This document shows, piece by piece, positions 1 through 17,588 of a stretch of 64,000 nucleotides of DNA. The position numbers and the translations under genes were made by a program. The notes under the pieces were generated by a model that was not told the origin of the DNA, made no database searches, and was given only the letters and a program-made list of their open reading frames with translations. Location of the stretch: positions 2,072 through 66,071 of the forward strand of contig CAYXHP010000148.1 of assembly GCA_964465015.1 (NCBI GenBank), written 5' to 3'. Positions within the stretch are counted from its first letter, which is position 1. Each line of letters starts with the position of its first letter. Origin of the DNA: an uncultured Gemmatimonadota bacterium. GTDB taxonomy: Bacteria > Gemmatimonadota > Gemmatimonadetes > Palauibacterales > Palauibacteraceae.

Positions 1-566
1 AGCGCGTCCTGGACGCCCTCCGAGGGCTCGACGGGGCGCGTGACATCCCGCTCCAGCGCCTCGCGAGGCACAGGGAAGCCCTCCCGGTGCAGGTGGGCCA
101 GGAAGGCGTCCCACAGCGTCGGGCCCGCCAGGCGGCGCTCCAGCCGCGCGCGGGCCTCGCTCCCTTCCGGATAGCGCTCCAGGATCAGGGGCCGCTTGAG
201 CCCGAGCGCGAACTCGAGCTCCCGGAACTGGAACGACTCCAGCCCGCTGGCCTGGTCCAGCCGGTCCCGGAAGGTGAGGAACTCGCGCGGGGTCATCGTC
301 TCCAGGATGTCGATCTGTCCCACCATGACCTTGAGGATGGTGAGGATCCGCTTCATGGCGTGGAGCGCCACGGGCAGGTCGTCGCGGTCCAGGATCGCCC
401 GCACGTAGTCCAGCTCGTGCAGCACCTCCTTGAACCACAGCTCGTACACCTGGTGGATGACGATGAACAACATCTCGTCGTGCTCCCCGGCCCGCAGGCG
501 CTGCAGCGAGAGGAGCTCGTCCAGGTGCAGGTAGTCGGCGTAGGTCAGGTAGCGTTCCGGCTCCAC
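1..566 (-). CDS. kynA: Tryptophan 2,3-dioxygenase, N-terminal part. The gene runs off the window start. GTG start at 566..564, 1 nt after the stop of the upstream gene.
   Basis: Reverse-strand translation gives VEPERYLTYADYLHLDELLSLQRLRAGEHDEMLFIVIHQVYELWFKEVLHEL...TMTPREFLTFRDRLDQASGLESFQFRELEFALGLK. This matches the conserved HDEMLFI.QHQ..ELW and TP.EF..FRD..SGFQS.QFR..E blocks of bacterial tryptophan 2,3-dioxygenase. The + strand ORFs here (87..740 and others) are low-complexity antisense frames. Confidence 0.85.
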   Translation of the reverse strand, partial: MEPERYLTYADYLHLDELLSLQRLRAGEHDEMLFIVIHQVYELWFKEVLHELDYVRAILDRDDLPVALHAMKRILTILKVMVGQIDILETMTPREFLTFRDRLDQASGLESFQFRELEFALGLKRPLILERYPEGSEARARLERRLAGPTLWDAFLAHLHREGFPVPREALERDVTRPVEPSEGVQDA

Positions 567-567
567 G

Positions 568-2847
568 TCAGTAGCCCCATTCGAAGCGAGGCGTGTAGTC
601 GTCCAGCGTCGAGTACGGCTTCGGCCACGGCAGGTCGTAGCCGAGCGCGTACGCGGCGTGGCGCGTCCAGTAAGGCTCCCACAGGTGGGCCCGGGCCAGG
701 CAGCACAGGTCCGCCCGGCCGGCGGCCAGGATCGTGTTGACGTCCATGTAGGAGGAGATGTTGCCCACCGCCATGGTGTGGATGCCGACCTCGTGCCGGA
801 TCCGGTCGGCGAAGGGCGTCTGGAACTGGCGCCCGTAGCGAGGCTTCTGCCATGGCACCGTCTGGCCGGCCGAGACGTCCACGATGTCGCCGCCCGCCTC
901 CGCGACCCGGCGTGCCACCTCCACCGCGTCGTCGGCGGTCATCCCCCCCGGGGCCCAGTCCACCGCGGAGATCCGGACCGAGATCGGCCGCTCCTCGGGC
1001 CACACCGCCCGCACGGCGCTCAGCACCTCGAGCGGGTAGCGCATCCGGTTCTCGAGCTCGCCCCCGTACTCGTCCTCGCGCTCGTTGGTGAGGGGGGAGA
1101 TGAAGCTGGCCAGGAGGTAGCCGTGCGCGAAGTGGATCTCTAGGAGGTCGAAGCCGGCCTCCACGGCCATCTCGGCCGCGCGGACGTACTCGCGCAGCAC
1201 CCGGTCCATGTCGGCTCGGTCCATGGGTCGGGGGACCGGATTCTCGGGCTTCCAGGGAAGGGGAGACGGGGCCAGCACCTCCCAGCCGTCCTCCTCCAGC
1301 GGCTCCACGTCCCCTTCCCAGGAGAGCTTCGTCGCGCCCTTGCGGCCCGCGTGCCCGAGCTGGAGGCCGATCCTGGCCGAGCTCCGGTCGTGCACGAAGT
1401 CGACGATCCGCTTCCACGCGGGAACGTGCTCGGGGAGGTACATGCCCGTGCACCCCGGCGAGATCCGTCCCTGGGCGCTGACGTTCGTCATCTCGCTCAT
1501 CACGAGGCCCGCGCCGCCCACCGCCCGGCTCCCCAGGTGCACCAGGTGCCAGTCGTCGGGTGTCCCGTCCACGGCCGAGTACTGGCACATGGCCGACACG
1601 ACCACGCGGTTCTCGAGCACGAGACCTCGAAGCCGGAACGGGGTGAACATCGGCGGGGGCGGCGGATCCGTCCGGATGGCGACGCCCGACTGCTCCGCGG
1701 CCCGGCCGGCGAACCAGCGGTCCACATCCGCGGTGAATGTCGGGTCGCGCATCCGCAGGTCCTCGTGCGTGATGCGGAGGCTCCGGGTGAGGAGCCCGAA
1801 AGCGAACTGGAGCGGCTCGTCGTCCATGTAGCGCTCGGTGCCCTCGAACCATTCCAGGCTGGCGCGGGCGGCGCGCTGCAGGCTCTCGACGTCGGGCCGC
1901 CGCGCCTCCTCGTAGGCCGGGAGCGCACGGCACGGCTGGTTCCCGTGCGCGGTCAGCGCATCCCGGAGCGCGATGGCATCGATCATGGCGATGCGCGTAC
2001 CCGAGCCCACCGAGAAGTGGGCGGTGTGCGCCGCGTCCCCGATGAGCACCGTGTTCCCGTGCCACCATCGACCGGTGCGCAGGGTCGGAAAGTGCCGCCA
2101 GATGGAGCGGTTCCGGATGAGCGGGTGCCCCTCGAGCTCCTCCTCGAACAGGTCGGCGCAGAAGGCGGCGGCCGCCTCTTCGTCGTCCTCCGGCAGGCCC
2201 GTGGCCGCCCACGTCTCATCGCGCGCCTCGACGATGAAGGTCGAGTGCGCCTTCCCGTCCCTGGTCGGCTCGTACTGGTAGGCGTGCACGCGCCACAGTC
2301 CGTGCCGGTCCTCGCGGAAGTAGAACGTGAAGGCCCGGAAGGGACGCGTCGTGCCGAGCCACACGAAGCGGTTGGGCCGGAGGTCGATGGTCGGCTGGTA
2401 ACGCTCCGGGTGGAGCCCGCGGACCGTGCTGTTCACCCCGTCGGCCGCCACGAGGAGGTCGGCCTCCTCCCACGGCGAGAGATCGGTGACGTCGACGCCG
2501 TGCCGGAGGTCCACGCCCAGCTCGCGAGCCCGGGCCGAGAGGATCTCGAGCAGGGTCGAGCGGGCGAGGCCCGAGAAGCCGTGTCCGGTGGAGCGCAGGC
2601 ACGCCCCCCGGTAGTGGATGTCGATGTCGTCCCAGTGGTGGAAGTGGCGGGTGATCTCCGCGTAGCTGGTCGGGTCGGCGGCGGCGATCTCCTCCAGCGT
2701 GGCATCCGAGAACACGACCCCGAAGCCGTAGGTGGCGCCGGGCGGGTTGCGCTCCAGCACCGTGACCTCGTGCGTCTCGTCCTGGAGCCGCATGAGGATG
2801 GAGAAGAAGAGCCCGGCGGGCCCGCCCCCGACGCAGACGATCCTCAC
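568..2847 (-). CDS. Bifunctional flavoprotein with an N-terminal FAD-dependent aromatic monooxygenase domain and a C-terminal Old Yellow Enzyme-type FMN reductase. Family of 2-aminobenzoyl-CoA monooxygenase/reductase and salicylyl-CoA 5-hydroxylase. GTG start at 2847..2845.
   Basis: The N-terminal part reads [15 protein letters not shown] (GxGxxG Rossmann) ...[16 protein letters not shown]. The C-terminal part reads [13 protein letters not shown]...[32 protein letters not shown]...VRISAVDW, an OYE TIM-barrel. It is about 760 aa. The 1252-aa ORF on the track is this gene plus upstream out-of-frame junk. GTGA overlap with the upstream ACAD stop. Confidence 0.85.
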
Positions 2848-4154
2848 GCCGGCTCCCCGGCCGCGGCGCCGCCGGCGCGCGGGCTCACCCGTTTGGCCCC
2901 GGTACCGTCCGGGCCCGTCTCCTCGGCCCCGCCGCCACGCCGGGTCGCCTCCACCAGGTGGCCCGCGATGATGAGGCGCTGGATCTCCGTGGTCCCCTCG
3001 TAGATCCGTAGCGCCCGCACCGACCGGTACAGCCGGTCCACCGGGTGGTCGGCCAGGACGCCGCGCCCTCCCAGGATCTGGACGGCTTCGTCCACGATCC
3101 TCTGCGCCGCCTCGGTCGCGTGCGCCTTGGCCATGGCCGACTCGACCGTGGTCCGCTCGGCGCCGCCGTCCCGCTCCCACGCGGCCCGGTAGGTGAGGAG
3201 ACGCGCGGCCGTCAGCTCGGTGGACATGCGGGCGAGCTTGTCCTGGACGAGCTGGAAATCGGCCAGCGGTCGACCGAACTGGCGGCGGGAGACGGCGTGG
3301 AAGAGGGCTTCCCCCAGCGCCCGTGCCGCCATGCCGCAGGCGGCGGCCGCCACCGTGGGTCGAAGCCGGTCCAACGTGGCGAGGCCGATCCCGAGCCCCC
3401 GGCCCTCCTCGCCGATGCGGGCCGCGGCCGGGACCCGGCAGCCGTCGAGCTCGATCTCGCCGAGCGGGTGAGGGGAGGAGAGGACCTGCGGCCCGGCGAA
3501 CCGGAGGCCGGGGGCCCCGGCCGGGACCACGAAGGCCGACACGCCCCGCCGCCCCGCCCCCGGGTCCGTGGCCGCGAACACCACGTAGAAGTCCGCGATC
3601 CCCGCGTTCGAGATGAACGCCTTGCGGCCGTCCAGGACGTAGTCGTCCCCGTCGCGAACGGCCCGCGTGGTCAGCGAGGCCACGTCGGACCCCGCCTCCG
3701 GCTCGGTCATGGCGAAGGCGCCCATGGCCCGCCCCCGCACCGCCGGTCCCAGCCACCGCTGGCGCGGCTCGCACTCGCCGGCCAGCACCAGGGGAGTCGC
3801 GGCCAGTCCCTGGAGGGCGAACACCGCGTCGGCGAGCGGGGAGGCGCCGGCGAGCGCCTCGCGCACGAGGCAGCAGGCCCGGAAATCCTGCGCCGCGATC
3901 GGACCCAGCCAGCCCCCGTCGCCGAGGAGCTCGAGCAGGTCGCGGGCCTCGCGGCGCGCCGCCGCGTCGTCGGCCGGCTCGGGCCTCGACGCGATCTCGC
4001 GCGCGCACATCCTTGATGCCTTCCCGGCCAGCTCGAGGTGACGCTTCTCCAGGAAGGCGCGTACCGGGGATGGGTCGGGGATCGCCGTTTCGCTCCCGAT
4101 GCCGGTGCCCCCTCCCACGTTCGCCGGCCGGCCGCGGAGCTTGTCGTCGGTCAT
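2844..4154 (-). CDS. Acyl-CoA dehydrogenase
   Basis: Motifs [23 protein letters not shown] and [16 protein letters not shown]. The true ATG is at 4154..4152 (MTDDKLRG...) and overlaps the stop of the upstream hydratase as ATGA. The track ORF extends upstream as Arg/Pro junk. Confidence 0.85.
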
Positions 4155-4981
4155 TCGAACCGCGTCTCCCGCTTCTCCACGAAGGCCTCGTAGGACTCGC
4201 GGAAGTTGGGATTCTGCATGCACACGGCCTGGACCTTGGCCTCCGCTTCGAGCGCGCTGTCCAGGTCCAGGATCGCTTCCCGGTTGAGCGCGTCCTTGGT
4301 GACCTCGAGGGCGAAGGAGGGCCCACGGGCGAGCTTCTCGGCCAGCTCGCGCGCTTCGCCGACCACCCGGTCGGCCGGGACGACGCGGTTGTAGAGGCCG
4401 ATGCGGTGCGCCTCGGCGGCGTCGATGAAATCGCCGGTCATGAGGAGCTCGGTGGCCCGGCCCAGGCCCACGATCCGCGGCAGGAGCCACGAGGCGCCCA
4501 TGTCGGCCCCGGAGAGCCCAACCCGGGTGAACAGGAAGGCGATCTTCGCGGTCTCGGACGCGATGCGGAGGTCGCACGCCGACGCGATGACCGCCCCGGC
4601 CCCGGCCACGGTCCCGTTCAGGGCGGCCACGACCGGCCGCCGGCAGGCCCGGATCGAGCCGATGAGGTCGCAGGTGAGGCGCGTGAAGGCGAGGAGGCCC
4701 TGGAAGTCACGCTCGAACAGGCGTCCGATGATGTCCTCCACGTCCCCTCCGGAGCAGAAGCCCCGGCCGCGGCCGGTGAGGAGGACGGACCGCACGCCGG
4801 GCTCCGTGTCCAGCGCCCGGAAGGCGTCCCGCAGCTCCTCGTACACCTCGAACGTGAGGGCGTTGAGCCGCTCGGGGCGATTCAGCGTGATCGTGGCCAC
4901 CGAGGTGGCCTCGTCGTGCTCGTACAGGAAGGACGTGGGTTCGATGGGCATCCGGCTCTCCGGTTCAGGATCCGTCCCCAT
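4151..4981 (-). CDS. Enoyl-CoA hydratase/isomerase (crotonase fold). Alternative start at 4951 (MPIEPTSF...).
   Basis: [12 protein letters not shown]...[12 protein letters not shown] (oxyanion-hole motif) ...[12 protein letters not shown]...[17 protein letters not shown]. Confidence 0.85.
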
Positions 4982-5420
4982 GGGTGGTCCGGGGCGGTGG
5001 CGCGGTGGCGGCTTCCCCGGGCGGCAGCACGGCGGTGGCCTCGATCTCGATCACCGCTCCCTCGTCGACGAGGCCGGTGACCTCCACCACGGCCATGGCC
5101 GGGTAGTGCCGGCCCATGAGCTCGCGCCACGTGGCTCCGAGCGGCCCGAGGGAGGCCCGGTATTCGTCGAGGTCCGTCACGTAGACGGTCATGCGTCCGA
5201 TGTGGGTCGGCCCTCCGCCGGCCTCGCCGACGACCGCCAGGACGTGGGACAGGGCACCGCGAAACTGGGCGGCGAGCCCTTCGCCGCGGATGCGGCCGTC
5301 CGCATCCCGGTCCGTCTGTCCCGCCACGAACACGAGGCGTCCGCCCGCCGGGGCCACCAGACCGTTGTTCCAGCCGCGGGGCTCCCCGAGCGCCTCCGGG
5401 TTCACGATCCGGAAGCTCAC
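4965..5420 (-). CDS. ridA: RidA/YjgF/TdcF-family protein (reactive-intermediate enamine/imine deaminase). GTG start at 5420.
   Basis: VSFRIVNPEALGEPRGWNNGLVAPAGGRLVFVAGQTDRDADGRI...MTVYVTDLDEY...PAMAVVEVTGLVDEGAVIEIEATAVL. It has a ~19 aa Pro/Ala-rich C-terminal tail. GTGA overlap with the stop of the upstream SDR. Confidence 0.8.
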   Translation of the reverse strand: MSFRIVNPEALGEPRGWNNGLVAPAGGRLVFVAGQTDRDADGRIRGEGLAAQFRGALSHVLAVVGEAGGGPTHIGRMTVYVTDLDEYRASLGPLGATWRELMGRHYPAMAVVEVTGLVDEGAVIEIEATAVLPPGEAATAPPPRTTHGDGS

Positions 5421-6235
5421 GCGAGGAGCTCTCCGCCGTCCATCACGATCGCCTGGCCGTTGATGCCCCGGGCGCCCTCGCCGCACAGCCACAGCGCGGC
5501 GTCGGCCACCTCCTCCGGCTCGATGAGGCGGCCCTGGGGGTTCATGGCCACGATCGCCTGCATCGCCTCCTCCTGGGAACGTCCCGTCTTGAGGGCGACG
5601 TTTCGGGCCGAGGCCAACGTCATCTCCGTGCTCACGTAGCCCGGACACAGCGCGTTGACCGTGACGCCCCGGCCGGCCACCTCGGCGGCCGCGCAGCGCG
5701 CGAGGCCGAGCACCGCGTGCTTGGAAGCGGCGTACGCCGCGGTGTAGCGGGCCCCGGTCAGGCCGGCCACGGAGGCCACGTACACCAGCCGTCCCCAGCC
5801 GCGCTCGGCCATGGAGGGCAGGAAGGCCCGCGTGCACAGGAAGGAGCCGGTCGCGTTCACCTCCAGCACCCGGCGCCACTCCTCGAGCTCCAGGCTGCGG
5901 ATCGGCGCGGCGGAGGCGATCCCGGCGGCATGGACCAGGATGTCGGCCGGACCGAGCTCCGCCCCGGTTCTCTCGGCCAGGGCGCCGACCTGGACGGCGT
6001 CCGACACGTCGCACGGGACCGGGGTCGCGCGCCCCCCGGCGGCGCGGATCTCCTCCGCCACGGCCTCGATCTCGCTCGCGCTGCGGGCGCTCACCACGAC
6101 CGCCGCTCCCGCCGCGGCCAGCCGACGTGCGGCGGCCGCCCCGATCCCCCGTCCCCCACCGGTGACGACCGCGATGCGGCCCTCGAGCGGGGTGGCCGCG
6201 CCGCGGCCCGCTTCGGCGGCGCCACGGGCCGTCAC
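5417..6235 (-). CDS. SDR-family oxidoreductase (FabG-like), canonical active site. GTG start at 6235.
   Basis: Motifs RIAVVTGGGRGIGAA, NATGSF and YAASKHAV (YxxxK) ...CPGYVST. GTGA overlap with the creatininase-family stop. Confidence 0.85.
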   Translation of the reverse strand: MTARGAAEAGRGAATPLEGRIAVVTGGGRGIGAAAARRLAAAGAAVVVSARSASEIEAVAEEIRAAGGRATPVPCDVSDAVQVGALAERTGAELGPADILVHAAGIASAAPIRSLELEEWRRVLEVNATGSFLCTRAFLPSMAERGWGRLVYVASVAGLTGARYTAAYAASKHAVLGLARCAAAEVAGRGVTVNALCPGYVSTEMTLASARNVALKTGRSQEEAMQAIVAMNPQGRLIEPEEVADAALWLCGEGARGINGQAIVMDGGELLA

Positions 6236-7005
6236 GCCGTCCTCCCGGAGCGGCCGGGGAGCGCCTCCAGGACCGCCTCGGCCAGGATCTCGCCCAGGAC
6301 CCGGATCGTCTCGCTTCCCTCCCCGGCCGAGGCGTCGGCCGGGGAGCCGCAGTACGCCCGGTCCATGCCGGCCTCCTCGAAGCTGGTCTTCCCCTGCCCG
6401 ATGGCCGCGGAGAGCGAGACCGGGACCGGGGAGAGGCTCCGCCGCACCTCCTCGCGGACCAGCTCGGGACGGGCGGCCAGCACCACCGACGCCTCGAAGC
6501 GGCCCGCGTGGCACTCCCCGCTCCGGAACTCCTCCCCCAGGCGTTCGGCCCAGCGGCGCGTGGCGAGGTCGGGGAAGACCGGGACCAGGAGGCCCCGCGC
6601 CTCGATCTCCCGCGCCGCCTCGCGCAGCGAGCCCCGGTGCCCGGGATCCACGTGGGGGCTCGCCAGTCCCAGGCACCCGACCCCGTGCCGACCCAGGCTG
6701 GCGGCCACGTCCACCACGAGCGCGGTCACGGTCTCGGGACGCACGTCGATCGTCCCCGGGAAGGCGGCGGCGAAGCCCGCCGCCGTGTACGGAAGGGTGG
6801 GGAGGAGGAGCACCTCGAGGCCCCTGTCGGACAGGCGCCGGGCCGCGTCCGCGACCATGGCCTCCGCCATGATCCCGTCCGTGGCCAGGGGGAGGTGTGG
6901 TCCGTGCGCCTCGAGGGCGCCCACGGGGAGCAGGGCGACGGTGACCTCCGGGTCGAGCGACCCCAGCTCCTCCCAGGTGCACCCGGACAGCTCGCGTACG
7001 GCCAT
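6232..7005 (-). CDS. Creatininase / creatinine-amidohydrolase-family metal hydrolase. ATG at 7005; alternative GTG at 7053.
   Basis: ALLPVGALEAHGPHLPLATD...HGVGCLGLASPHVDPGHRG...ECHAGRFE. First gene of the minus-strand operon. Confidence 0.75.
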   Translation of the reverse strand: MAVRELSGCTWEELGSLDPEVTVALLPVGALEAHGPHLPLATDGIMAEAMVADAARRLSDRGLEVLLLPTLPYTAAGFAAAFPGTIDVRPETVTALVVDVAASLGRHGVGCLGLASPHVDPGHRGSLREAAREIEARGLLVPVFPDLATRRWAERLGEEFRSGECHAGRFEASVVLAARPELVREEVRRSLSPVPVSLSAAIGQGKTSFEEAGMDRAYCGSPADASAGEGSETIRVLGEILAEAVLEALPGRSGRTA

Positions 7006-7097: not shown

Positions 7098-8774
7098 ATG
7101 CCTCGATCCGAGACCGACGCGCTGGACGCCACCCGCTCCGTGGACGTGCCCTTGCGTCCGCCCGAGCGGTTCAACATCGCCGACTACTTCCTGGATGACC
7201 GCGTGCGGGAGGGCCTCGGCGAGCGCACCGCGCTGATCACCGACCGCGGAACCTACAGCTACGCGGACGTCCAGGCCCTGGCCAACCGCTTCGCCCACGT
7301 CCTGGTGCGGGCCGGCGTCGAGCCCGAGCAGCGCGTCCTCCTGGCGCTTCCAGACGGCGCCGAGCTCGTGGCGGCGCTGTTCGCCGTACTCAAGGTCGGG
7401 GCGGTGGCGGCGCTGGTGAATCCCGGGCTGTCGGCCGAGGAGATCGCGTACTTCCTGGGCTACACGCGGGCCGTGGTCCTGGTGACGCACGCCGGGAGCG
7501 TGGACACGTTCCGGGAAGCCCGCCGCCGCGCCCGGGCCGTCGACCCCGACTTCCTCAAGGAGGTGCTCGTCGTCGGGGACCCGGCCTTCGACGCGATCCT
7601 CGCGGAGATGCCCGACGCCTTCGAGAGCTTCCCCACCCACCGTGATGACGCGGCCATCTGGCTGTTCTCGGGCGGGACGACGGGGCGGCCCAAGGCCGCG
7701 GTCCAGACCCACACCTCCTACGCCAACGCTTCGGCCTGCTACGGCCGGCACGTGGTGGGCTACGGACCCGAAGACCTGACGATCTCGGTCCCCAAGCTCT
7801 ACTTCGGCTACGCGATGGGGGCCAACCTGTTCTTCCCGTTCGCCGTCGGCGCCACCTCCGTCCTGTTCCCCGAGCGCTGCACCTCGGAGCGGCTGTTCGA
7901 CCTCATCGAGCACCATCGGCCCACCGTGCTGGTGAACGTGCCCACCATGGTGAACCACCTGGTGAGCGACCCCGGCGCGCCCGGGCGCGATCTCTCCTCC
8001 CTCCGGGTTTCCACCTCGGCCGGCGAGGCGCTCCCGGTGGACCTCCACCGTCGCTGGGACGAGCTGTTCGGCGTCGAGCTCCTGGACGGTCTCGGCACGG
8101 CCGAGATGTGGCACATCTTCCTCTCGAACCGGCGGGGCGATGTCCGGCCGGGGACGTTGGGAAAGGCGGTGCCGGGCTACGAGATCCGCGTGTGCGACGA
8201 AGAAGGGCGGGAGCTGCCGGCGGGCGATACGGGGTGGCTGTGGGTGCGCGGAAACTCGCGCGCCATCGGCTACTGGCAGCGCATGGAGGAGTCCCGCCGC
8301 GCCTTCCGCGGCGAGTGGTACGCCTCCAGCGACATGGTCCGGCTGGACGAGGACGGCTACGTGGTCTACTGCGGACGCGGTGACGACATGCTCAAGGTCT
8401 CGGGAAAGTGGCTGTCCCCCAAGGAGGTGGAGGACTGCCTCGTGGAGCATTCCCGGGTGCGCGAGGCGGTGGTCGTCGGCGCGACGAACGCGGCGGGACT
8501 CACGAAGCCGTACGCGTTCGTGGTGCCGGCGCCGCCGGTCCCGGAGACCGAGGGCGGCGCGGCGGGATCCGGTGGGGGCCAGACCGGCGGGGCATCGGCG
8601 GCGGACTCGGCGACGGACCTCGCGGCCGTCCTGCAGGCCTGGGTGAAGGAGCGGCTCGCCCCCTACAAGTACCCGCGCCGCGTGCTCCTGGTGGACGACC
8701 TCCCCCGCACGCACCTGGGAAAGGTGGACCGGGGGGAGATGCGCCGGGTCGCCGAGGCGCTGGGCGAGGACTGA
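7098..8774 (+). CDS. AMP-forming aryl-CoA ligase of the benzoate-CoA ligase / 2-aminobenzoate-CoA ligase family
   Basis: Motifs NIADYFLDDRVREGLGERTALI, LFSGGTTGRPKAAVQTH, YFGYAMGAN, GDMLKVSGKWLSPKEVE and YKYPRRV...LPRTHLGK. Confidence 0.85.
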   Translation: MPRSETDALDATRSVDVPLRPPERFNIADYFLDDRVREGLGERTALITDRGTYSYADVQALANRFAHVLVRAGVEPEQRVLLALPDGAELVAALFAVLKVGAVAALVNPGLSAEEIAYFLGYTRAVVLVTHAGSVDTFREARRRARAVDPDFLKEVLVVGDPAFDAILAEMPDAFESFPTHRDDAAIWLFSGGTTGRPKAAVQTHTSYANASACYGRHVVGYGPEDLTISVPKLYFGYAMGANLFFPFAVGATSVLFPERCTSERLFDLIEHHRPTVLVNVPTMVNHLVSDPGAPGRDLSSLRVSTSAGEALPVDLHRRWDELFGVELLDGLGTAEMWHIFLSNRRGDVRPGTLGKAVPGYEIRVCDEEGRELPAGDTGWLWVRGNSRAIGYWQRMEESRRAFRGEWYASSDMVRLDEDGYVVYCGRGDDMLKVSGKWLSPKEVEDCLVEHSRVREAVVVGATNAAGLTKPYAFVVPAPPVPETEGGAAGSGGGQTGGASAADSATDLAAVLQAWVKERLAPYKYPRRVLLVDDLPRTHLGKVDRGEMRRVAEALGED

Positions 8775-8871: not shown

Positions 8872-9822
8872 CTATGCGGCTCCGACCAGCTCCCGCACCG
8901 GCGTCATCCCGCCGTGGGCGTCGGGGACCTCCCCGTGCACGACGCCCATGAAGCGCCGCTGGATCTCGCGGGTCACCGGACCCATGCTCCCCGCACCGAT
9001 CTCGATCCGGTCCACGCTGCGGACCGGCGTCACCTCCGCGGCGGTTCCGGTGAAGAAGAGCTCGTCGGCCGAGTAGAGGGTCTCGCGTGGGACCGGGCCC
9101 TCCCGCACCGGGATGCCGAGGTCGTCCGCCAGCGTGAGGATGGCGTCCCGGGTGATGCCCCGGAGCGAGGTGCCGTCCAGCGCCGGCGTGACGAGGGTTC
9201 CGTTCCGCACCAGGAACAGGTTCTGGCCGCTCCCCTCGCTCACCAGTCCGCCCGGCCCGAGCGCGATCCCCTCCGAGAAGCCGTTGGCGATCGCCTCGAG
9301 CTTGATGAGGGTGGCGTTGGTGTAGTGACCGGCGGCCTTGGCGGCCGAGGGGAAGGTGTTGGGAGCCGGCCGGTGCCAGCTCGACACGCACACGTCGACC
9401 CCGCGCTCCAGAGCTCCCTCGCCCAGGTAGGTCCCCCACGGCCACACGGGGATCCACGTCTCGATGGGGCTGGCGCGCGTGTCGAGTCCGGCCGCCCCGT
9501 ACCCCCGGAGCACCATGGGCCGGATGTAGCAGGAGGCGAGGCCGTTGCGGGCCACCACCGCGCCGCACGCCTCCTCGAGTGTCCCGGGCGGGTGCTCGGG
9601 CGCCATGTGATAGACCCGGGCCGAGTCGTACAGGCGGCGAATGTGCTCGGGGAGGCGGAAGATGGCCGGGCCGTCCGCGGTCTCGTAGCAGCGGATTCCC
9701 TCGAACACGGAGGCTCCGAACTGCACGGCGCTCGACAGCAGGTGGACGGTGGCGTCCTCCCAGCGGACGAACTCACCATCCTTCCACATCCACTCGGTCT
9801 CGGTGAACTGCGACGCAGGCAT
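8872..9822 (-). CDS. ilvE: Branched-chain amino acid aminotransferase. Probable start at 9789 (MWKDGEFV...).
   Basis: WMWKDGEFVRWEDATVHLLSSAVQFGASVFEGIRCY...GAAKAAGHYTNATL...LFFTGTAAEVTPV. Confidence 0.85.
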   Translation of the reverse strand: MPASQFTETEWMWKDGEFVRWEDATVHLLSSAVQFGASVFEGIRCYETADGPAIFRLPEHIRRLYDSARVYHMAPEHPPGTLEEACGAVVARNGLASCYIRPMVLRGYGAAGLDTRASPIETWIPVWPWGTYLGEGALERGVDVCVSSWHRPAPNTFPSAAKAAGHYTNATLIKLEAIANGFSEGIALGPGGLVSEGSGQNLFLVRNGTLVTPALDGTSLRGITRDAILTLADDLGIPVREGPVPRETLYSADELFFTGTAAEVTPVRSVDRIEIGAGSMGPVTREIQRRFMGVVHGEVPDAHGGMTPVRELVGAA

Positions 9823-9860
9823 CGTGTCTCTCCGCTCGGTCGTGGCCGCCCGACGGCGGC

Positions 9861-10637
9861 CTATAGAAGGGACCGGATCCAGCCGCCGTCCACGGCGATC
9901 GAGCTCCCGGTGATGTAGGAAGCCCGCTCCGAGGCCAGGAAGGCGACCAGCGCCGCCAGCTCGCGCGGCTCACCGATTCGGCCCATGGGGATCTCGCGGT
10001 TCCAGTGCTCGAACGCATCCTCCGCCCCGTCCGATGTACCGGCCAGCTCCTCCAGGCGCGCCGTGCGCGTGTAGCCGGGCATCACGTTGTTCACCGTGAT
10101 CCCCTGCGCCGCCACGTCGTTGGCCAGCGTGCGCGCCAGCCCGGTCACCGCGGCCCGCAGGCTGTTGGACAGGATGAGGTTCTGGACCGGTTGCTTCACC
10201 GCGATGGACGTGATGGTGACGATCCGACCCCAGCGTCGCCCCTTCATGTCCGGGAGGACGCGCCGAACCATCTCGACCACGCTCTCGAGCAGGAGCCGCT
10301 CGGCGGCGCGCCACGTCTCGAGGTCGTGGGTCTCGAACGACCCGGCGGGGGGGCCGCCCGTGTTCGTGACCAGGATCTCCACCGGTCCGAAGGCCCGTTC
10401 GGCCCCCGAGACCGCCGCGTCGATGCCCGTGGTGGTGGAGAGATCGGCGGCCACGGCGGCCACCTCGGCACCCGTCTCGGAGGCGATCGCCGCCCGGGCC
10501 TCCTCCAGCCGCTCCTCCCCGCGGGCGCACAGCACCACCCGCGCGCCCTCGGCCGCCAGCTCGGCCGCCACCGCCCGGCCCAGGCCGCTGCTCGACCCGC
10601 CCACGAGCGCCACCCGTCCGGTCAGTCCCAGGTCCAT
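9861..10637 (-). CDS. SDR-fold oxidoreductase with a non-canonical active site
   Basis: It has the VALVGGSSSGLGRA Rossmann motif and NTGG. The YxxxK position reads S-N-S-L-R (ITSIAVKQPVQNLILSNSLRAAV), so the catalytic Tyr/Lys appear replaced by Ser/Arg. Confidence 0.75.
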   Translation of the reverse strand: MDLGLTGRVALVGGSSSGLGRAVAAELAAEGARVVLCARGEERLEEARAAIASETGAEVAAVAADLSTTTGIDAAVSGAERAFGPVEILVTNTGGPPAGSFETHDLETWRAAERLLLESVVEMVRRVLPDMKGRRWGRIVTITSIAVKQPVQNLILSNSLRAAVTGLARTLANDVAAQGITVNNVMPGYTRTARLEELAGTSDGAEDAFEHWNREIPMGRIGEPRELAALVAFLASERASYITGSSIAVDGGWIRSLL

Positions 10638-11196: not shown

Positions 11197-11997
11197 TCAG
11201 GTCGAGTCGCTCTCCTCCCAGTATCGGGTGCTCGTGGCGGGAGCCCAGCGGGCGGGATCGAACAGGGCGGGGTCCAGAGTGTCCGGGGCCCGGATGTCCG
11301 AGTACTCCTCGGTCTGGAACAGCCGGCCGTCCACCCGCAGGTCCAGGTGCGTCTCTACCCAGCCGTCGCCGAGGGGCTGCCAACCGCCGATCGTCGCGTC
11401 CAGGAGCCTTCCGTCGCCGAGAGGCTGGATGTCGCGCACCGCCAGGAGCCGGTCCGCGTCGACCCAGAACTGGGGGGACGTCGTGTCCCCCGCCGCGGCT
11501 CCCACGATCCACACCGGACGGCCCTCGAGCGTGTCCCGCCGGGCCAAGGACAGGTCGATCCCCAGGCTGTCCAGCACGTGGGCCGAGCGCTCGACCGGCT
11601 GCAGGTAGACATCCGAGAGCAGCACGGCGAGCGGATTGGTGTCGGAGGCCGAGTCTGCCAGCTGGCCGGACCTGAACCCGTACCGCTGGCCGTCCACGTA
11701 GAGAACCCCGTTGCCCTCGGCCAGGGGCTCCATGTCGATGCGGAGCTTCCCGAGCGCCAGCGCCTCGTGCCAGAGCGTCGTGTCCTGGACCCCGGGCTTC
11801 GGGTATCGGATGGTCCGCTGCGTGAACGTCACGTAGGGAGGCCAGTGCCCCTGGTAGAGGTCGTGCATGGCCTGGAGCACCTCGTGGCCGCTGCGGAAGC
11901 TCCGGCCGGGGGGCGACCCGTCATCCGAGCCGCAGGCCGAGGTCACGGCGAGCGCGGCGGCGACGAGGACGGACGCGGCGGCGGCGGGACGATGCAT
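11197..11997 (-). CDS. Hypothetical lipoprotein
   Basis: Signal peptide followed by LAVTSAC|GSDD (lipobox-like). No recognisable catalytic motif. Confidence 0.55.
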   Translation of the reverse strand: MHRPAAAASVLVAAALAVTSACGSDDGSPPGRSFRSGHEVLQAMHDLYQGHWPPYVTFTQRTIRYPKPGVQDTTLWHEALALGKLRIDMEPLAEGNGVLYVDGQRYGFRSGQLADSASDTNPLAVLLSDVYLQPVERSAHVLDSLGIDLSLARRDTLEGRPVWIVGAAAGDTTSPQFWVDADRLLAVRDIQPLGDGRLLDATIGGWQPLGDGWVETHLDLRVDGRLFQTEEYSDIRAPDTLDPALFDPARWAPATSTRYWEESDST

Positions 11998-12287
11998 CGG
12001 TGCCTCTCGGGCTCGGGGGCCGGGGGACGGCGTCCGGATCCCGGCATCCTAAGTCCCGGGCTCTCCGTGTCAATCGTCCGCGAGTCCGGGTCGGCGGATG
12101 GAGAGGTCGATGGGGTCGATTTTTCCCGGGGTCGGGGAATGGGAGGGCGGGCCGATCGGGCGCCGCGCGCGGAAGCGACGTGGCAAGGGGGCTGGACGGC
12201 CCGGATCCCCGTGCTAGATTTCCGCGCTCGATCCGCGCGGGCCCCGCTCCGGGAGCCCCTGTCTTCTCTTTCAGGAGACGACCTCCC

Positions 12288-12995
12288 ATGAAGGCCAGTG
12301 ACATCCGCCGCGGGCACGTGTTGCTCGTGGACGGCGCGCCGTGTCGGGTGATGGAGTTCCAGCACCGCACGCCCGGCAACCTGCGCGCCTTCGTCCAGGT
12401 CCGGCTGCGGGGCCTGCTCTCGGGGAAGAGCTTCGACCAGCGGTTCAGCGCCACGCAGTCGGTCCAGGAAGTGCGGGTGGAATCCCGTCCGATGCAGGCG
12501 CTCTACCGCGACGCGGCCGGACTGCACGCCATGGACTCGGGGACGTACGAGGAGCACGTGCTCGACGACGAGACCGTGGGTGAACTGGGCAGCTGGCTGG
12601 AGCCCGGCGCCATGTTCTCGGTGGAGTGGCTGGAGGGGCGGGCGATCGGGGTCGAGCCTCCCGCCGCGGTGGAGGCGCAGGTGGTGGAGACCGCGCCCGT
12701 GGTCCGCGGGGCTACCAAGACGGCGAGCACCAAGCCGGCCCGGCTGGACAACGGGGCCACGGTGCAGGTGCCGGAGTTCGTCGGGGTGGGGGACCGCATC
12801 CGGGCCCGACCCCTGGACGGCACCTACCTGGAGCGCGCCTGGCGGGGGCCCACATACCGGTATGATCTCGTGCGAGCAGTGTCGCCGCGCCCGACGCCGT
12901 CCAGTGTCGGGATGTGCACTTTTTGCAGGTACGTGGACCGACCTCGGCCCCCCGGGTGGATGTGCACTGCGGACGATGTCCCTATCTTAGTCTAA
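12288..12995 (+). CDS. efp: Elongation factor P with an atypical ~50 aa C-terminal extension. The canonical end would be near 12850.
   Basis: MKASDIRRGHVLLVDGAPCRVMEFQHRTPGNLRAFVQVRLRGLLSGKSFDQRF...VQVPEFVGVGDRIRARPLDGTYLERA. An RBS (AGGAGA) lies 10 nt upstream. The in-frame stop is only at 12993..12995. Confidence 0.85.
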   Translation: MKASDIRRGHVLLVDGAPCRVMEFQHRTPGNLRAFVQVRLRGLLSGKSFDQRFSATQSVQEVRVESRPMQALYRDAAGLHAMDSGTYEEHVLDDETVGELGSWLEPGAMFSVEWLEGRAIGVEPPAAVEAQVVETAPVVRGATKTASTKPARLDNGATVQVPEFVGVGDRIRARPLDGTYLERAWRGPTYRYDLVRAVSPRPTPSSVGMCTFCRYVDRPRPPGWMCTADDVPILV

Positions 12996-13199
12996 TGACA
13001 CCAACGGGTTGAGGTCGACGGAAACTCACCCGGACAACCGCTGCCGATCCCCGGCACGTTGGCTGCACGGGCAGACGGTAGTTCAGGGGAACGGGCGCTT
13101 CCCGGCCGACGGGTCGGGGAACCCTCGCGACGGGGGCCGGAAGCCCAATCGGGCGGCCGGCCCCCGTCTGCTTGCACCGTGCTTCCCTCGCTTCCCGCT

Positions 13200-14945
13200 T
13201 CAGCCGGCGCTGTCCGCGCCGGTGTCCTGGCCTCCCCCCGTGACCTTCAGGTCCGCCGTCCGGCGGAACGTGGGCGGCCGACGTACCTTGGTGGCCTGCT
13301 CGAACGCGTATGCCAGCTTGAGGAGTGTGGGCTCGCTCCAGGCCCGGCCCACGAACGAGAAGCCGACCGGCAGCCCGAAGACGTAGCCGGCGGGCACCGT
13401 GATGTGGGGGTAGCCGGCCACAGCGGCGGGCGAGGTGAAGCTCCCGCCGGCGCCGACGTCGCCGTTCACGAGGTCGATCAGCCATGGCGGGCCGGACGTC
13501 GGGGCCACCAGCGCGTCGAGCCGGTGCGCGTCCATGACCTTGTCGATTCCCTCGGTCCGGGTGAGCCGGTGGTTCTTCTCGAGCGCCTTGCGGTAGGCGG
13601 CCTCGGTGAGTGGCCCCTTCTTCTGGGCTTGCAGCATGATGTCCTGGCCGAAGTAGGGCATCTCGCGGCCGGCGTGGGCCCGGTTGAAGGCGATCACGTC
13701 GGCCAGCGAGCGCACCGGCGCGCCCGGCCCGAGCTCCGTCAGGTACTTGTCGAGGTCCGCCTTGAACTCGTACAGGAGGACGTCGAACTCGGAGTCTCCC
13801 CACTTTCCGGCCGTGGCGATGTCGGCGGGGTCGACGAGCACCGCGCCCGCGTTCTTCAGGACCCGCAGCGCGTTCTCGGCGATCGCGTCGGCGTGGGGGT
13901 TGTAGCCGAAGTAGTGGCTCCGGGCCACGCCGATGCGGGCGCCCTTCAGCCCGGCGGGATCGAGGAAGCGCGTGTAGTCCTTCTCTACGTGGCCGCCGGC
14001 CGCCGCCGTGGCCGGGTCCCGGGGGTCGGGCCCCGCCATGGCGCCGAGCAGGAGGGCCGCGTCCCTCACCGTCCGCGCCATCGGCCCGGCCGTGTCCTGG
14101 CTGTGGGCGATGGGGACGATCCCGGCGCGGCTCACCAGCCCGAGCGTGGGCTTGATCCCGACCAGGGAGCTGGCGTTGGAGGGACAGGTCACCGACCCAT
14201 CGGTCTCGGTCCCGACCGCGACCGTGCAGAAGCTGGCCGAGGCGGCGGCCCCCGATCCCGAGCTCGAGCCGCACGGGGTGCGATCGATGGCGTACGGGTT
14301 CCGGCCCTGTCCCCCGCGGCCGCTCCATCCGCTCGAGGAATGGGAGGAGCGGAAGTTGGCCCACTCGCTGAGGTTGGTCTTCCCGAGCAGGATGGCGCCC
14401 GCGTCCCGCAGGCGCGCAGCCAGGTGGGCATCGCGCGGGACCTTCGCCCCGACCAGCGCCAGGGAGCCCGCCGCGCTCTCCATGCGATCGTCCGTGGCGA
14501 TGTTGTCCTTGAGGAGCACCGGGATCCCGTGCAGCGGCCCCCTCGCCCCCTTCGACTTGCGCTCGGCATCCAGCCGGTCGGCGATGTCGAGCGCTGCGGG
14601 ATTGGTCTGCAGCACCTGCGCCAGACGGGGGCCCTTCCCGTCCAGGGCGTCGATGCGCTCGAGGTAGGCCTCCGTGAGACCGCGCGCCGTGAGGCTCCCT
14701 TCCTCCATGCGCTTTTGGAGGTCGGTGATCGTCGCCTCCTCGTACTCGAAGGCCGGGATGTCGAAATCGGCCTCGCCGCCCTCCCCGCGCCGGGCGTCGC
14801 TCCGCTCCGCGTCCTGTCCGGCACAGGCCAGGGCGGCCGGTCCGGCGGCCACGGCCAGCCCTCCCACCGCCGCGTCGCGGAGGAAGTGCCGGCGGGTCAG
14901 CGGTCTCGAAGGCGTAGCCTCGACCTCGGGACGATGGTCTCCCAT
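13200..14945 (-). CDS. Amidase (amidase-signature family), Tat-secreted
   Basis: ATG at 14945 (MGDHRPEV...). It has an SRPLTRRHFLRDAAVGG twin-arginine motif and the GSSSGSGAA (GGSSGG-type) signature. The 777-aa and 727-aa ORFs on the track here are junk frames. Confidence 0.85.
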   Translation of the reverse strand: MGDHRPEVEATPSRPLTRRHFLRDAAVGGLAVAAGPAALACAGQDAERSDARRGEGGEADFDIPAFEYEEATITDLQKRMEEGSLTARGLTEAYLERIDALDGKGPRLAQVLQTNPAALDIADRLDAERKSKGARGPLHGIPVLLKDNIATDDRMESAAGSLALVGAKVPRDAHLAARLRDAGAILLGKTNLSEWANFRSSHSSSGWSGRGGQGRNPYAIDRTPCGSSSGSGAAASASFCTVAVGTETDGSVTCPSNASSLVGIKPTLGLVSRAGIVPIAHSQDTAGPMARTVRDAALLLGAMAGPDPRDPATAAAGGHVEKDYTRFLDPAGLKGARIGVARSHYFGYNPHADAIAENALRVLKNAGAVLVDPADIATAGKWGDSEFDVLLYEFKADLDKYLTELGPGAPVRSLADVIAFNRAHAGREMPYFGQDIMLQAQKKGPLTEAAYRKALEKNHRLTRTEGIDKVMDAHRLDALVAPTSGPPWLIDLVNGDVGAGGSFTSPAAVAGYPHITVPAGYVFGLPVGFSFVGRAWSEPTLLKLAYAFEQATKVRRPPTFRRTADLKVTGGGQDTGADSAG

Positions 14946-16659: not shown

Positions 16660-16676
16660 GAAAGGGACGCGCTCGC

Positions 16677-17552: not shown

Positions 17553-17588
17553 GCGGCCGGCGCACGAAGAACAGCGGGAGGTAGGGAG

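What the first reader, a model, noticed from the sequence alone, without database searches (positions are those of the whole stretch)
4965..5420. RidA embedded in the aryl-CoA operon: candidate enamine/imine deaminase for the dearomatised 2-amino-cyclohexene-carboxyl-CoA intermediate
The monooxygenase/reductase product is a vinylogous enamine (2-amino-cyclohex-1-ene-carboxyl-CoA). RidA-family proteins hydrolyse reactive enamine/imine intermediates and release ammonia. A RidA gene coupled by GTGA overlap to the SDR upstream and 13-43 nt ahead of the enoyl-CoA hydratase start is a plausible catalyst for the unassigned deamination step that would yield a 2,5-dioxo-cyclohexane-carboxyl-CoA for thiolytic/hydrolytic ring opening. 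The ~19-residue Pro/Ala-rich C-terminal tail is unusual for RidA.
Basis: inference. Interest (0 to 1): 0.55.

Follow-up and report, generated by a model that had tools for sequence, protein, structure and literature searches.

The report
Arginine-less Rid protein in anthranilate-CoA operon
A small Rid-family gene is a conserved, tightly coupled part of a tryptophan/anthranilate breakdown operon and is a reasonable but untested candidate for the pathway's missing ammonia-releasing step, although it lacks the arginine that canonical RidA deaminases need.

Summary
Window 4965-5420 (minus strand) is a 151-aa Rid/YjgF-family gene (Pfam PF01042). Its GTG start overlaps the stop of the upstream SDR gene (GTGA), and it ends 13 nt before the enoyl-CoA hydratase start.

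It sits in a seven-gene operon: creatininase-family, SDR, Rid, enoyl-CoA hydratase, acyl-CoA dehydrogenase, AbmA-like monooxygenase/reductase, tryptophan 2,3-dioxygenase. An aryl-CoA ligase is transcribed divergently. The substrate is therefore very probably anthranilate derived from tryptophan.

- 31 of 39 Rid-seeded loci with full flanks carry the AbmA-like gene.
- 21 of 25 AbmA-seeded loci with full flanks carry this Rid type, and 17 of 18 when the hydratase and dehydrogenase are also present.
- The link survives several different gene orders in six bacterial phyla and a haloarchaeon. Two gentisate-type AbmA-like loci carry none, or only a distant weak one.

It is not a canonical RidA. It scores 38 bits against a 106-bit RidA cut-off, and the catalytic Arg105 is replaced by Met in 124 of 126 cluster-linked homologues. 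The Pro/Ala-rich tail is unconserved and predicted disordered.

Deamination of the enamine-CoA intermediate is plausible (about 0.4). The neighbouring hydratase is a serious rival.

The parts
4965..5420 (-). Rid/YjgF-family gene of 151 aa. It belongs to an arginine-less subfamily with a 'YPAM' motif, where Met109 occupies the Arg105 position of RidA. It is the candidate enamine/imine-CoA deaminase.
   Evidence: Translation. PF01042 at 57.5 bits. TIGR00004 at 38 bits against a 106-bit cut-off. Alignments. AF2 model with Rid fold.
5417..6235 (-). Short-chain dehydrogenase/reductase of 272 aa. Its GTG start overlaps the stop of the creatininase-family gene (GTGA).
   Evidence: PF00106 at 201 bits. 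Junction sequence. Independent gene call of 272 aa.
6232..7005 (-). Creatininase-family metal amidohydrolase, the first gene of the operon. It is a candidate formamidase for N-formylkynurenine or N-formylanthranilate (inference).
   Evidence: PF02633 at 174 bits. Gene call of 257 aa. Conserved upstream of SDR-Rid in 33 of 39 full-flank Rid-seeded loci.
4151..4951 (-). Enoyl-CoA hydratase family protein of the NF006107/PRK08258 type. It starts 13 nt after the Rid stop and has a GGAGAG Shine-Dalgarno-like motif.
   Evidence: NF006107 at 373 bits, above the 330-bit cut-off. Junction. Gene call of 266 aa.
2844..4154 (-). Acyl-CoA dehydrogenase. Its ATG overlaps the hydratase stop (ATGA).
   Evidence: Pfam Acyl-CoA_dh_1/M/N domains. 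Junction. Gene call of 436 aa.
568..2847 (-). AbmA-like bifunctional FAD monooxygenase / old-yellow-enzyme reductase. NCBIfam names it 'bifunctional salicylyl-CoA 5-hydroxylase/oxidoreductase'. Its GTG overlaps the dehydrogenase stop (GTGA).
   Evidence: NF006101 at 1096 bits against a 1078-bit cut-off. PF01494 plus PF00724. Junction.
1..566 (-). Tryptophan 2,3-dioxygenase, N-terminal 188 codons. It starts 1 nt after the AbmA-like stop and is cut off by the window edge.
   Evidence: PF03301 at 138.6 bits. The full 262-aa gene in L173 scores 297 bits on TIGR03036, below that model's 390.7-bit cut-off. A TDO gene lies directly downstream of the AbmA-like gene in many related loci.
7098..8774 (+). 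Divergently transcribed aryl-CoA ligase of the benzoate-CoA ligase family. It is the presumed anthranilate-CoA ligase.
   Evidence: TIGR02262 at 457 bits, above the 375-bit cut-off. Conserved in a divergent position in 30 of 39 full-flank loci.

Best explanation
The gene encodes a member of a distinct arginine-less Rid/YjgF subfamily. The subfamily signature is P8, R76, H105, P107-A108-M109, E125 and E127, with Met where RidA has Arg105. It is a fixed component of the CoA-dependent aerobic anthranilate pathway. In this organism the operon also encodes the steps from tryptophan to anthranilate.

Most likely mechanism (inferred, not shown): the homotrimeric protein binds the dearomatised AbmA product, 2-amino-5-oxocyclohex-1-ene-1-carboxyl-CoA, or its SDR-reduced 5-hydroxy form. 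It promotes enamine-to-imine tautomerisation and water attack, using the retained Glu120-equivalent (E125). Ammonia is released and a 2-oxo (beta-keto) cyclohexanecarboxyl-CoA results. The hydratase-family enzyme and the acyl-CoA dehydrogenase can then process that product, for example by BadI-like hydrolytic ring opening.

The Arg-to-Met change fits a substrate whose carboxyl group is masked as a thioester, so that no carboxylate needs a salt bridge.

Shown: the gene, its family, the operon coupling, the conserved co-occurrence, and the Arg-to-Met signature. Inferred: the substrate and the catalytic activity.
For: Operon structure:
- Seven genes are joined by 4-nt overlaps or spacers of 13 nt or less.
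- TDO is in the operon and a kynureninase-like gene lies just beyond the window, so the substrate carries the amino group.

Co-occurrence:
- Forward test: 31 of 39 full-flank Rid-seeded genome loci have the AbmA-like gene and 37 of 39 have the hydratase.
- Reverse test: 21 of 25 full-flank AbmA-seeded plasmid and metagenome loci have this Rid, and 17 of 18 when hydratase and dehydrogenase are both present.
- The link persists through several different gene orders. It is seen in Gemmatimonadota, Acidobacteriota, Myxococcota, Alpha- and Betaproteobacteria, Deinococcus and a haloarchaeon.
- One gentisate-type AbmA-like locus, with cupin dioxygenase and FAH hydrolase but no hydratase or dehydrogenase, has no Rid (L092). 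The other (L088) has only a weak, distant Rid-family hit of 64 bits about 6.9 kb away.

Sequence signature:
- Met replaces Arg105 in 124 of 126 cluster-linked Rid proteins, and the Glu120-equivalent is kept in 126 of 126.

Chemistry and precedent:
- Anthranilate-grown Arthrobacter contains a CoA ester of a C7H8O4 acid, interpreted as cyclohexanedione-carboxyl-CoA. This is consistent with deamination at the CoA-ester level (PMC3534580).
- Rid-fold enzymes already act as 2-aminomuconate deaminase in aromatic amine catabolism (PMC4433059).
- The downstream pathway is regarded as unknown (PMC9007349).
Against: - Arg105 is considered necessary for Rid imine hydrolysis, and subfamilies lacking it are predicted not to be imine hydrolases (PMC4433059; PMC5619798).
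- The closest full-length solved relative, 5v4f from Yersinia pestis, also lacks the arginine. It is probably Y3550, an identification inferred here from its Phe17 and missing arginine. Y3550 showed no 2-aminoacrylate deaminase activity (PMC7221256).
- No Rid protein is known to act on a CoA thioester.
- Enoyl-CoA hydratases can remove a heteroatom from a substituted enoyl-CoA by hydration followed by spontaneous elimination (PMC5742626). The adjacent hydratase could therefore do the deamination unaided.
- Four of 25 full-flank AbmA-seeded loci lack the Rid, including one with both hydratase and dehydrogenase (L086).
- No biochemical or genetic data exist for any member of this subfamily in the sources I could search.
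Confidence: 0.4

Rival explanations
1. The enoyl-CoA hydratase (NF006107 type) performs the deamination. It adds water across the C1=C2 enamine double bond, giving a gem-amino alcohol that loses ammonia spontaneously. The Rid protein has an accessory role in the same pathway, such as enamine/imine or keto/enol tautomerisation, or speeding hydrolysis of an imine that escapes.
For: - The hydratase is even more tightly associated with the cluster than AbmA is: 37 of 39 loci.
- Hydratases of the benzoyl-CoA pathway defluorinate F-enoyl-CoA by exactly this hydration-elimination logic (PMC5742626).
- The Rid lacks the canonical catalytic Arg.
Against: - It does not explain why a Rid with a strictly conserved Met/Glu signature is retained in nearly every beta-oxidation-type cluster across six bacterial phyla and a haloarchaeon.
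- The enaminone is a stabilised vinylogous amide and a poor Michael acceptor (chemical reasoning, not tested).
Confidence: 0.3
2. The Rid protein is a damage-control enzyme for a reactive side product rather than for the main intermediate. One candidate is the quinone-imine formed by autoxidation of 2-amino-5-hydroxybenzoyl-CoA, the AbmA product under NADH limitation. Another is an enamine released by the kynureninase-like PLP enzyme.
For: - The general role of Rid proteins is pre-emption of imine/enamine damage.
- 5-Hydroxyanthraniloyl-CoA is formed by AbmA under NADH limitation, and a matching CoA ester was seen in vivo (PMC3534580).
- A PLP-fold kynureninase-like gene follows TDO in this organism.
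Against: - Most proteobacterial clusters carry the Rid but no kynureninase.
- An Arg-less Rid is not expected to hydrolyse 2-aminoacrylate.
- Gentisate-type clusters, which go through the 5-hydroxy aromatic CoA ester, lack a strong Rid.
Confidence: 0.12
3. In this lineage the creatininase-family metal amidohydrolase hydrolyses the vinylogous amide C-N bond and so releases the ammonia. The Rid protein does something else.
For: - The creatininase-family gene is the first gene of the operon and is conserved in 33 of 39 Gemmatimonadota/Acidobacteriota-type loci.
- The family hydrolyses amide C-N bonds (own knowledge).
Against: - It is absent from 11 of the 12 AbmA-seeded full-flank loci of the proteobacterial/Deinococcus type (hydratase, dehydrogenase and Rid all present, AbmA about 50-55% identical to the window's), all of which keep the Rid.
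- It is better explained as the missing formamidase of the TDO-kynureninase branch.
Confidence: 0.06
4. The protein has no catalytic role in the pathway. It could be a regulator, chaperone or ribonuclease, as older annotations of the family suggested, or a neutral passenger gene.
For: - Historic annotations call the family 'translation inhibitor' or 'endoribonuclease L-PSP'.
- No activity is known for any Arg-less Rid.
Against: - A passenger gene would not stay linked to the cluster through repeated rearrangements across bacterial phyla and an archaeon.
- The active-site positions (Met109, Glu125, an aromatic residue at position 17) are under strong conservation.
- RNase activity was not found for the related Yersinia proteins.
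Confidence: 0.05

Closest known systems
RidA (YjgF/TdcF; 2-iminobutanoate/2-iminopropanoate deaminase, TIGR00004)
   Same: - Same PF01042 domain and chorismate-mutase-like fold.
- Retained Glu120 equivalent and an aromatic residue at position 17.
- Proposed chemistry is the same type: hydrolysis of an imine/enamine to a ketone plus ammonia.
   Different: - Arg105 is replaced by Met, nearly invariantly.
- It scores 38 bits against a 106-bit cut-off.
- Only about 31% identical to E. coli RidA.
- The proposed substrate is a beta-enamino CoA thioester, not an alpha-imino acid.
- It would be a main-pathway enzyme rather than a damage pre-emption enzyme.
Arginine-less Rid subfamilies Rid4-Rid7, e.g. 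Yersinia pestis Y3550 / PDB 5v4f (YyfB)
   Same: - Lacks the catalytic Arg and keeps the Glu.
- Aromatic residue at position 17.
- A shared N-terminal 'I-N-P-E' segment aligns over the full length with 5v4f.
- Function unassigned.
   Different: - Only 29% identical to 5v4f, which has Asn rather than Met at the Arg site.
- I could not assign the protein to a specific CDD subfamily (Rid5 or Rid6) with these tools.
- Unlike those orphans, this group has a clear and conserved pathway context.
The 'putative translation inhibitor protein' gene of the Azoarcus evansii abm (2-aminobenzoate) clusters (Schuhle et al. 2001; recalled from memory, paper not held)
   Same: - Same kind of cluster: AbmA-type monooxygenase/reductase, aryl-CoA ligase, beta-oxidation-like enzymes and a Rid/YjgF-family gene.
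- The proteobacterial plasmid versions seen here (AbmA-SDR-MarR-ECH-ACAD-ligase-RidA) match that description.
   Different: - The window version has a different gene order and no MarR gene.
- It adds a creatininase-family gene, TDO and a kynureninase-like gene.
- I could not retrieve the A. evansii sequence to test orthology directly.
2-Aminomuconate deaminase (Rid-family enzyme of aminophenol/nitrobenzene catabolism)
   Same: A Rid-fold protein used as a dedicated main-pathway enamine deaminase in aromatic amine degradation (cited in PMC4433059).
   Different: - Its substrate is a free alpha-enamino dicarboxylate formed after ring cleavage, not a cyclic CoA thioester.
- Sequence relationship was not tested here, because no reference sequence was available.

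Membership tests
Rid / YjgF / YER057c / UK114 superfamily (Pfam PF01042) | Significant match to the PF01042 domain above the gathering score | tested here: met
   57.5 bits against a 27.3-bit cut-off, E=1.8e-15, covering residues 27-131.
Rid / YjgF / YER057c / UK114 superfamily (Pfam PF01042) | Chorismate-mutase-like alpha/beta fold of about 130 residues | tested here: met
   AF2 model with mean pLDDT 83 and core above 90. Foldseek probability 1.00 to many Rid structures. TM 0.71/0.80 and rmsd 2.8 A to 5v4f.
Rid / YjgF / YER057c / UK114 superfamily (Pfam PF01042) | Homotrimer with active sites at the subunit interfaces | not testable with these tools
   Only monomer prediction was available.
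RidA subfamily (TIGR00004, enamine/imine deaminase) | Score above the curated family cut-off | tested here: not met
   TIGR00004 at 38.4 bits against 106.25. NF008490 at 24 bits against 222.
RidA subfamily (TIGR00004, enamine/imine deaminase) | Catalytic arginine (Arg105 in E. coli/S. enterica numbering) that binds the substrate carboxylate | tested here: not met
   Met109 aligns with Arg105. Met is found in 124 of 126 cluster-linked homologues.
RidA subfamily (TIGR00004, enamine/imine deaminase) | Conserved Glu120 and an aromatic residue at position 17 | tested here: met
   E125 aligns with Glu120 in 126 of 126 sequences. Position 17 is Trp in the window and W/Y/F in 125 of 126.
RidA subfamily (TIGR00004, enamine/imine deaminase) | 2-Aminoacrylate / 2-iminoacid deaminase activity | not testable with these tools
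   Needs an enzyme assay. The literature predicts no activity without Arg105.
Arginine-less Rid subfamilies (Rid4-Rid7 of Niehaus et al. 2015) | Rid domain lacking the Arg105 equivalent and retaining the Glu | tested here: met
   The definition is taken from PMC4433059.
Arginine-less Rid subfamilies (Rid4-Rid7 of Niehaus et al. 2015) | Assignment to one specific CDD subfamily. Trp at the Arg site marks Rid4/Rid7. The site is variable in Rid5/Rid6. | tested here: inconclusive
   Met at the site argues against Rid4/Rid7 and is compatible with Rid5/Rid6. No CDD models were available to score.
abm-type CoA-dependent aerobic anthranilate catabolic cluster | AbmA-type fused FAD-monooxygenase/OYE-reductase together with an aryl-CoA ligase | tested here: met
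   NF006101 at 1096 bits (cut-off 1078) and TIGR02262 at 457 bits. Both domains are present.
abm-type CoA-dependent aerobic anthranilate catabolic cluster | Beta-oxidation-like enzymes (hydratase, acyl-CoA dehydrogenase, SDR) in the same operon | tested here: met
abm-type CoA-dependent aerobic anthranilate catabolic cluster | The substrate is 2-aminobenzoate rather than salicylate or another aryl acid | tested here: inconclusive
   Supported indirectly by TDO in the operon, the kynureninase-like neighbour, and TDO/KynU/cyclase genes in related clusters. The NCBIfam name refers to salicylyl-CoA. No enzymatic data.

The most novel reading that the evidence does not exclude
The Met-type Rid proteins linked to AbmA clusters are the long-missing deaminase of the Fuchs-type aerobic 2-aminobenzoyl-CoA pathway. 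They would be the first Rid-family enzymes acting on a CoA-thioester enamine, and the first biochemical function for an arginine-less Rid subfamily. The Arg-to-Met swap would be the adaptation to a substrate without a free carboxylate.
Probability: 0.35. Interest if true: 0.7.

Novelty: new member of a known kind. Interest (0 to 1): 0.5.

Why it matters
Two open questions meet in this gene.

First, the aerobic CoA-dependent anthranilate pathway has been known since about 1990. Its steps after the AbmA monooxygenase/reductase, including ammonia release, are still unassigned, and pathway-annotation tools omit it for that reason.

Second, the arginine-less Rid subfamilies are widespread but have no ascribed biochemical function.

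A Rid subgroup with an invariant Met/Glu signature, locked to this pathway in six bacterial phyla and a haloarchaeon, gives a concrete substrate to test. The enzymes needed to generate that substrate are encoded next door.

If the activity is confirmed, it would complete a tryptophan/anthranilate catabolic route that appears common in soil Gemmatimonadota and Acidobacteriota. It would also correct the blanket 'RidA family' annotation.

Tried and rejected
Literature:
- Attempts to read Schuhle et al. 2001 by DOI, PubMed id and two PMC ids failed. The statement that the A. evansii abm clusters contain a 'putative translation inhibitor' gene therefore rests on my memory.
- The searches linking RidA with 2-aminobenzoyl-CoA, anthranilate degradation or salicylyl-CoA hydroxylase found nothing relevant. 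Searches returned mostly noise. All ten paper searches are used.

Wrong record:
- I fetched the wrong Arthrobacter Rue61a plasmid (p232) while looking for pAL1. The paper's supplement lists only thioesterase, ligase and AbmA there, with no Rid mentioned, but that table is not a full gene list.

Ideas rejected:
- The C-terminal tail as a functional feature. Close homologues mostly end 2-5 residues after the IEATA motif. Extensions of up to 48 residues occur sporadically with unrelated low-complexity sequences, and the model is disordered there. The tail is not an assembly artefact, because identical 151-aa proteins occur in three assemblies.
- ATG 4981 as the hydratase start. It has no Shine-Dalgarno-like motif, would overlap the Rid gene by 17 nt, and independent gene calls use 4951.
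- A second Rid gene in the window. None was found.

Not done:
- Assignment to a CDD Rid subfamily, for lack of models.
Full report
**1. What is in the sequence**

On the minus strand, 4965-5420 translates to a 151-aa protein ending in TGA. It matches Pfam PF01042 (Endoribonuclease L-PSP, the Rid/YjgF family) at 57.5 bits.

The GTG start at 5420 overlaps the TGA stop of the upstream SDR gene. The sequence reads CTCGC-GTGA-GCTTCC, with a GGAGAG motif 8 nt upstream. The N-terminus MSFRIVNPEALG is the conserved N-terminus of the closest homologues.

The stop at 4967-4965 is followed by 13 nt containing GGAGAG and then the ATG at 4951 of an enoyl-CoA hydratase. Independent gene calls on three metagenome assemblies that carry the identical protein give the same boundaries.

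**2. The operon**

Family scans and the junction sequences define a minus-strand operon:

| Gene | Coordinates |
|---|---|
| Creatininase-family amidohydrolase | 7005-6232 |
| SDR | 6235-5417 |
| Rid | 5420-4965 |
| Enoyl-CoA hydratase, NF006107 type | 4951-4151 |
| Acyl-CoA dehydrogenase | 4154-2844 |
| AbmA-like FAD-monooxygenase/OYE-reductase | 2847-568 |
| Tryptophan 2,3-dioxygenase, cut by the window edge | 566-1 |

- The AbmA-like protein scores 1096 bits on NF006101, just above its 1078-bit cut-off.
- Four of the six junctions are 4-nt overlaps (GTGA or ATGA). The other two are spacers of 13 nt and 1 nt.
- A benzoate-CoA-ligase-family gene (7098-8774) is transcribed divergently.
- A contig of the same organism that reaches beyond the window start (L173) shows the complete 262-aa TDO. 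A 459-aa PLP-fold protein follows it, with a weak hit to the kynureninase C-terminal domain.
- The operon therefore appears to encode tryptophan to anthranilate, then anthraniloyl-CoA, then dearomatisation and further breakdown.
The NCBIfam name ('salicylyl-CoA 5-hydroxylase') left that open.

**3.

Forward direction:
- A scan of one genome per species with the Rid protein gave 80 loci, mostly Gemmatimonadota, Acidobacteriota and Myxococcota.
- Of the 39 with at least 7 kb on both sides, 31 carry the AbmA-like gene, 37 the hydratase, 36 the SDR, 33 the creatininase-family gene and 26 TDO.

Reverse direction:
- AbmA-like proteins were used to seed loci from plasmids and metagenomes.
- Of 25 loci with full flanks, 21 carry a Rid gene.
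- Of the 18 that also have the hydratase and the dehydrogenase, 17 do.

Gene order differs between lineages:
- Creat-SDR-Rid-ECH-ACAD-AbmA-TDO in the window type.
- AbmA-SDR-MarR-ECH-ACAD-ligase-(thioesterase)-Rid in Phyllobacterium, Paracoccus, Ralstonia and Deinococcus.
- The same with TDO and kynureninase inserted in Sagittula.
- AbmA-Rid-ACAD-MaoC-SDR-ECH in the haloarchaeon Halomicrococcus.
- Further arrangements occur in the metagenome loci.

An association that survives this much rearrangement is functional, not just inherited.

The contrast group is informative. AbmA-like genes that sit next to a cupin dioxygenase and an FAH-family hydrolase follow the gentisate logic. Caballeronia pSBC1_4 has no hydratase, no dehydrogenase and no Rid. 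Novosphingobium L088 has only a distant, weak Rid-family hit of 64 bits.

**4. What kind of Rid protein it is**

- It is not a canonical RidA. It scores 38 bits on TIGR00004 against a 106-bit cut-off.
- Alignments to E. coli RidA and to PDB entries place Met109 at the position of the catalytic Arg105: 'YPAM' against 'FPAR'.
- Across 126 Rid proteins from the Rid-seeded and AbmA-seeded loci, identity to the window protein is as low as 34%. That position is Met in 124. The Glu120 equivalent (E125) is invariant, and position 17 is Trp, Tyr or Phe.
- The Rid literature holds that Arg105 is essential for imine hydrolysis. It also holds that the Arg-less subfamilies Rid4-7 'remain mysterious' (PMC4433059; PMC5619798).
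- An Arg-less Yersinia protein, Y3550, lacked 2-aminoacrylate deaminase activity (PMC7221256).
- The AF2 model has the Rid fold, with core pLDDT above 90. The best full-length structural and profile match is 5v4f from Y. pestis, which has Asn at the Arg site.
- No solved structure belongs to the Met-type group. The best match is 58 bits and the identities are below 31%.

**5. The tail**

In the 120 closest homologues, most proteins end 2-5 residues after the IEATA motif. Sporadic extensions of up to 48 residues have unrelated, low-complexity sequences. The window's 21-residue extension has model confidence below 65, falling below 50 at the end. It is a lineage-specific disordered appendix, not a meaningful anomaly.

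**6. How it most likely works**

Shown:
- The protein is a conserved, co-translated component of the CoA-dependent anthranilate pathway.
- It has a strongly constrained pocket, with Met109 and Glu125 and an aromatic residue at position 17.

Inferred:
- It accelerates hydrolysis of the AbmA product, 2-amino-5-oxocyclohex-1-ene-1-carboxyl-CoA, or of its 5-hydroxy derivative, through the imine tautomer. The products would be the 2-oxo CoA ester and ammonia.

Supporting context:
- In RidA the arginine forms a salt bridge with the substrate carboxylate. A thioester substrate has no such carboxylate, so a hydrophobic Met is a sensible replacement.
- The free enamine-CoA deaminates readily only at acidic pH, and a CoA ester with the mass of cyclohexanedione-carboxyl-CoA accumulates in anthranilate-grown Arthrobacter (PMC3534580). 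Deamination at the CoA-ester level in vivo is therefore likely.
- A Rid-fold enamine deaminase already exists in aromatic amine catabolism: 2-aminomuconate deaminase.
- The step is unassigned in the literature I could search.

Main rival: the adjacent hydratase hydrates the enamine double bond and ammonia leaves spontaneously. Benzoyl-CoA-pathway hydratases do exactly this with fluoro-enoyl-CoA (PMC5742626).

I put the deaminase reading at about 0.4 and the hydratase reading, with Rid in an accessory role, at about 0.3. The rest is spread over damage control, the creatininase-family enzyme, and non-catalytic roles.

**7. Comparison with what is known, and novelty**

- The cluster type was described in Azoarcus evansii in 2001. 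From my memory of that abstract, it included a 'putative translation inhibitor protein', the old name for this family. I could not retrieve the paper.
- PGAP routinely labels these neighbours 'RidA family protein'.
- The window gene is therefore a new member of a known kind, in a new Gemmatimonadota-type operon architecture.
- What is not known is the function. The strict Arg-to-Met signature documented here, together with its tight linkage to the beta-oxidation-type but not the gentisate-type clusters, makes a precise and testable hypothesis.
- Interest is moderate (0.5). A specialist would not be surprised to see the gene there. But the gene makes two long-standing gaps directly testable: the steps downstream of AbmA, and the function of Arg-less Rid proteins.

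Noticed in passing
window 1-566 (-); L173 6267-8431: The operon continues past the AbmA-like gene into a tryptophan 2,3-dioxygenase that is cut off by the window edge. In a contig of the same organism it is followed, with a 4-nt overlap, by a 459-aa PLP-fold protein. That protein has only a weak kynureninase C-terminal domain hit (21 bits, E=3e-4) and may be a divergent kynureninase.
   Followed up: partly
window 6232-7005 (-): A creatininase-family (PF02633) amidohydrolase is the first gene of the operon. It is conserved in the Gemmatimonadota/Acidobacteriota versions (33 of 39 loci) and absent from nearly all proteobacterial-type ones. The family includes formamide hydrolases (own knowledge), so it may be a non-orthologous kynurenine or N-formylanthranilate formamidase.
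   Followed up: partly
window 568-7005 (-): Four of the six gene junctions in the operon are 4-nt start/stop overlaps: GTGA three times and ATGA once. The other two are spacers of 13 nt and 1 nt. GGAGAG Shine-Dalgarno-like motifs precede the Rid and hydratase starts.
   Followed up: yes
L092 (Caballeronia sp. SBC1 pSBC1_4) 11974-16425; L088 (Novosphingobium humi): A second class of AbmA-like genes (45-48% identical) sits next to a cupin dioxygenase and an FAH-family hydrolase, and has no hydratase or dehydrogenase. This is a gentisate-type route. L092 has no Rid. L088 has only a weak, distant Rid-family hit (64 bits, about 6.9 kb away). It shows that the NCBIfam name 'salicylyl-CoA 5-hydroxylase' covers at least two pathway types.
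   Followed up: partly
L047 and L048 (Polyangiaceae MAGs) 12668-14320: Here the Creat...SDR-Rid-ECH-ACAD block is followed by an ORF that matches only the OYE-reductase C-terminal part of AbmA (residues 585-770, 34-35% identity), not a full AbmA. A different dearomatising enzyme may feed the same downstream module.
   Followed up: no
L087 (Halomicrococcus gelatinilyticus plasmid) 11974-18015: A haloarchaeal plasmid carries an AbmA-like gene immediately followed by a Rid gene, then an acyl-CoA dehydrogenase, a MaoC dehydratase, an SDR and an enoyl-CoA hydratase. A trpB gene lies next to them. This suggests the module has crossed between domains.
   Followed up: partly
L091 (Sagittula stellata E-37 plasmid) 11974-21896: A single operon-like array reads AbmA-SDR-MarR-ECH-ACAD-ligase-TDO-kynureninase-thioesterase-RidA. 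It is the clearest annotated example tying the whole module to tryptophan catabolism in a cultivated, tractable organism.
   Followed up: partly
window 8872-10637 (-): A branched-chain amino acid aminotransferase (NF005146, 382 bits) and a second SDR lie just beyond the ligase gene. The aminotransferase is conserved at this position only in the closest relative (L001), so it is probably not part of the module.
   Followed up: partly
window 13200-16659: ORF translations suggest an amidase-signature protein (13200-15032, -). They also suggest an ECF-type sigma factor with an adjacent zinc-finger anti-sigma factor (15230-15853 and 15850-16659, +). This was seen only in the ORF listing and was not scanned against family libraries.
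   Followed up: no
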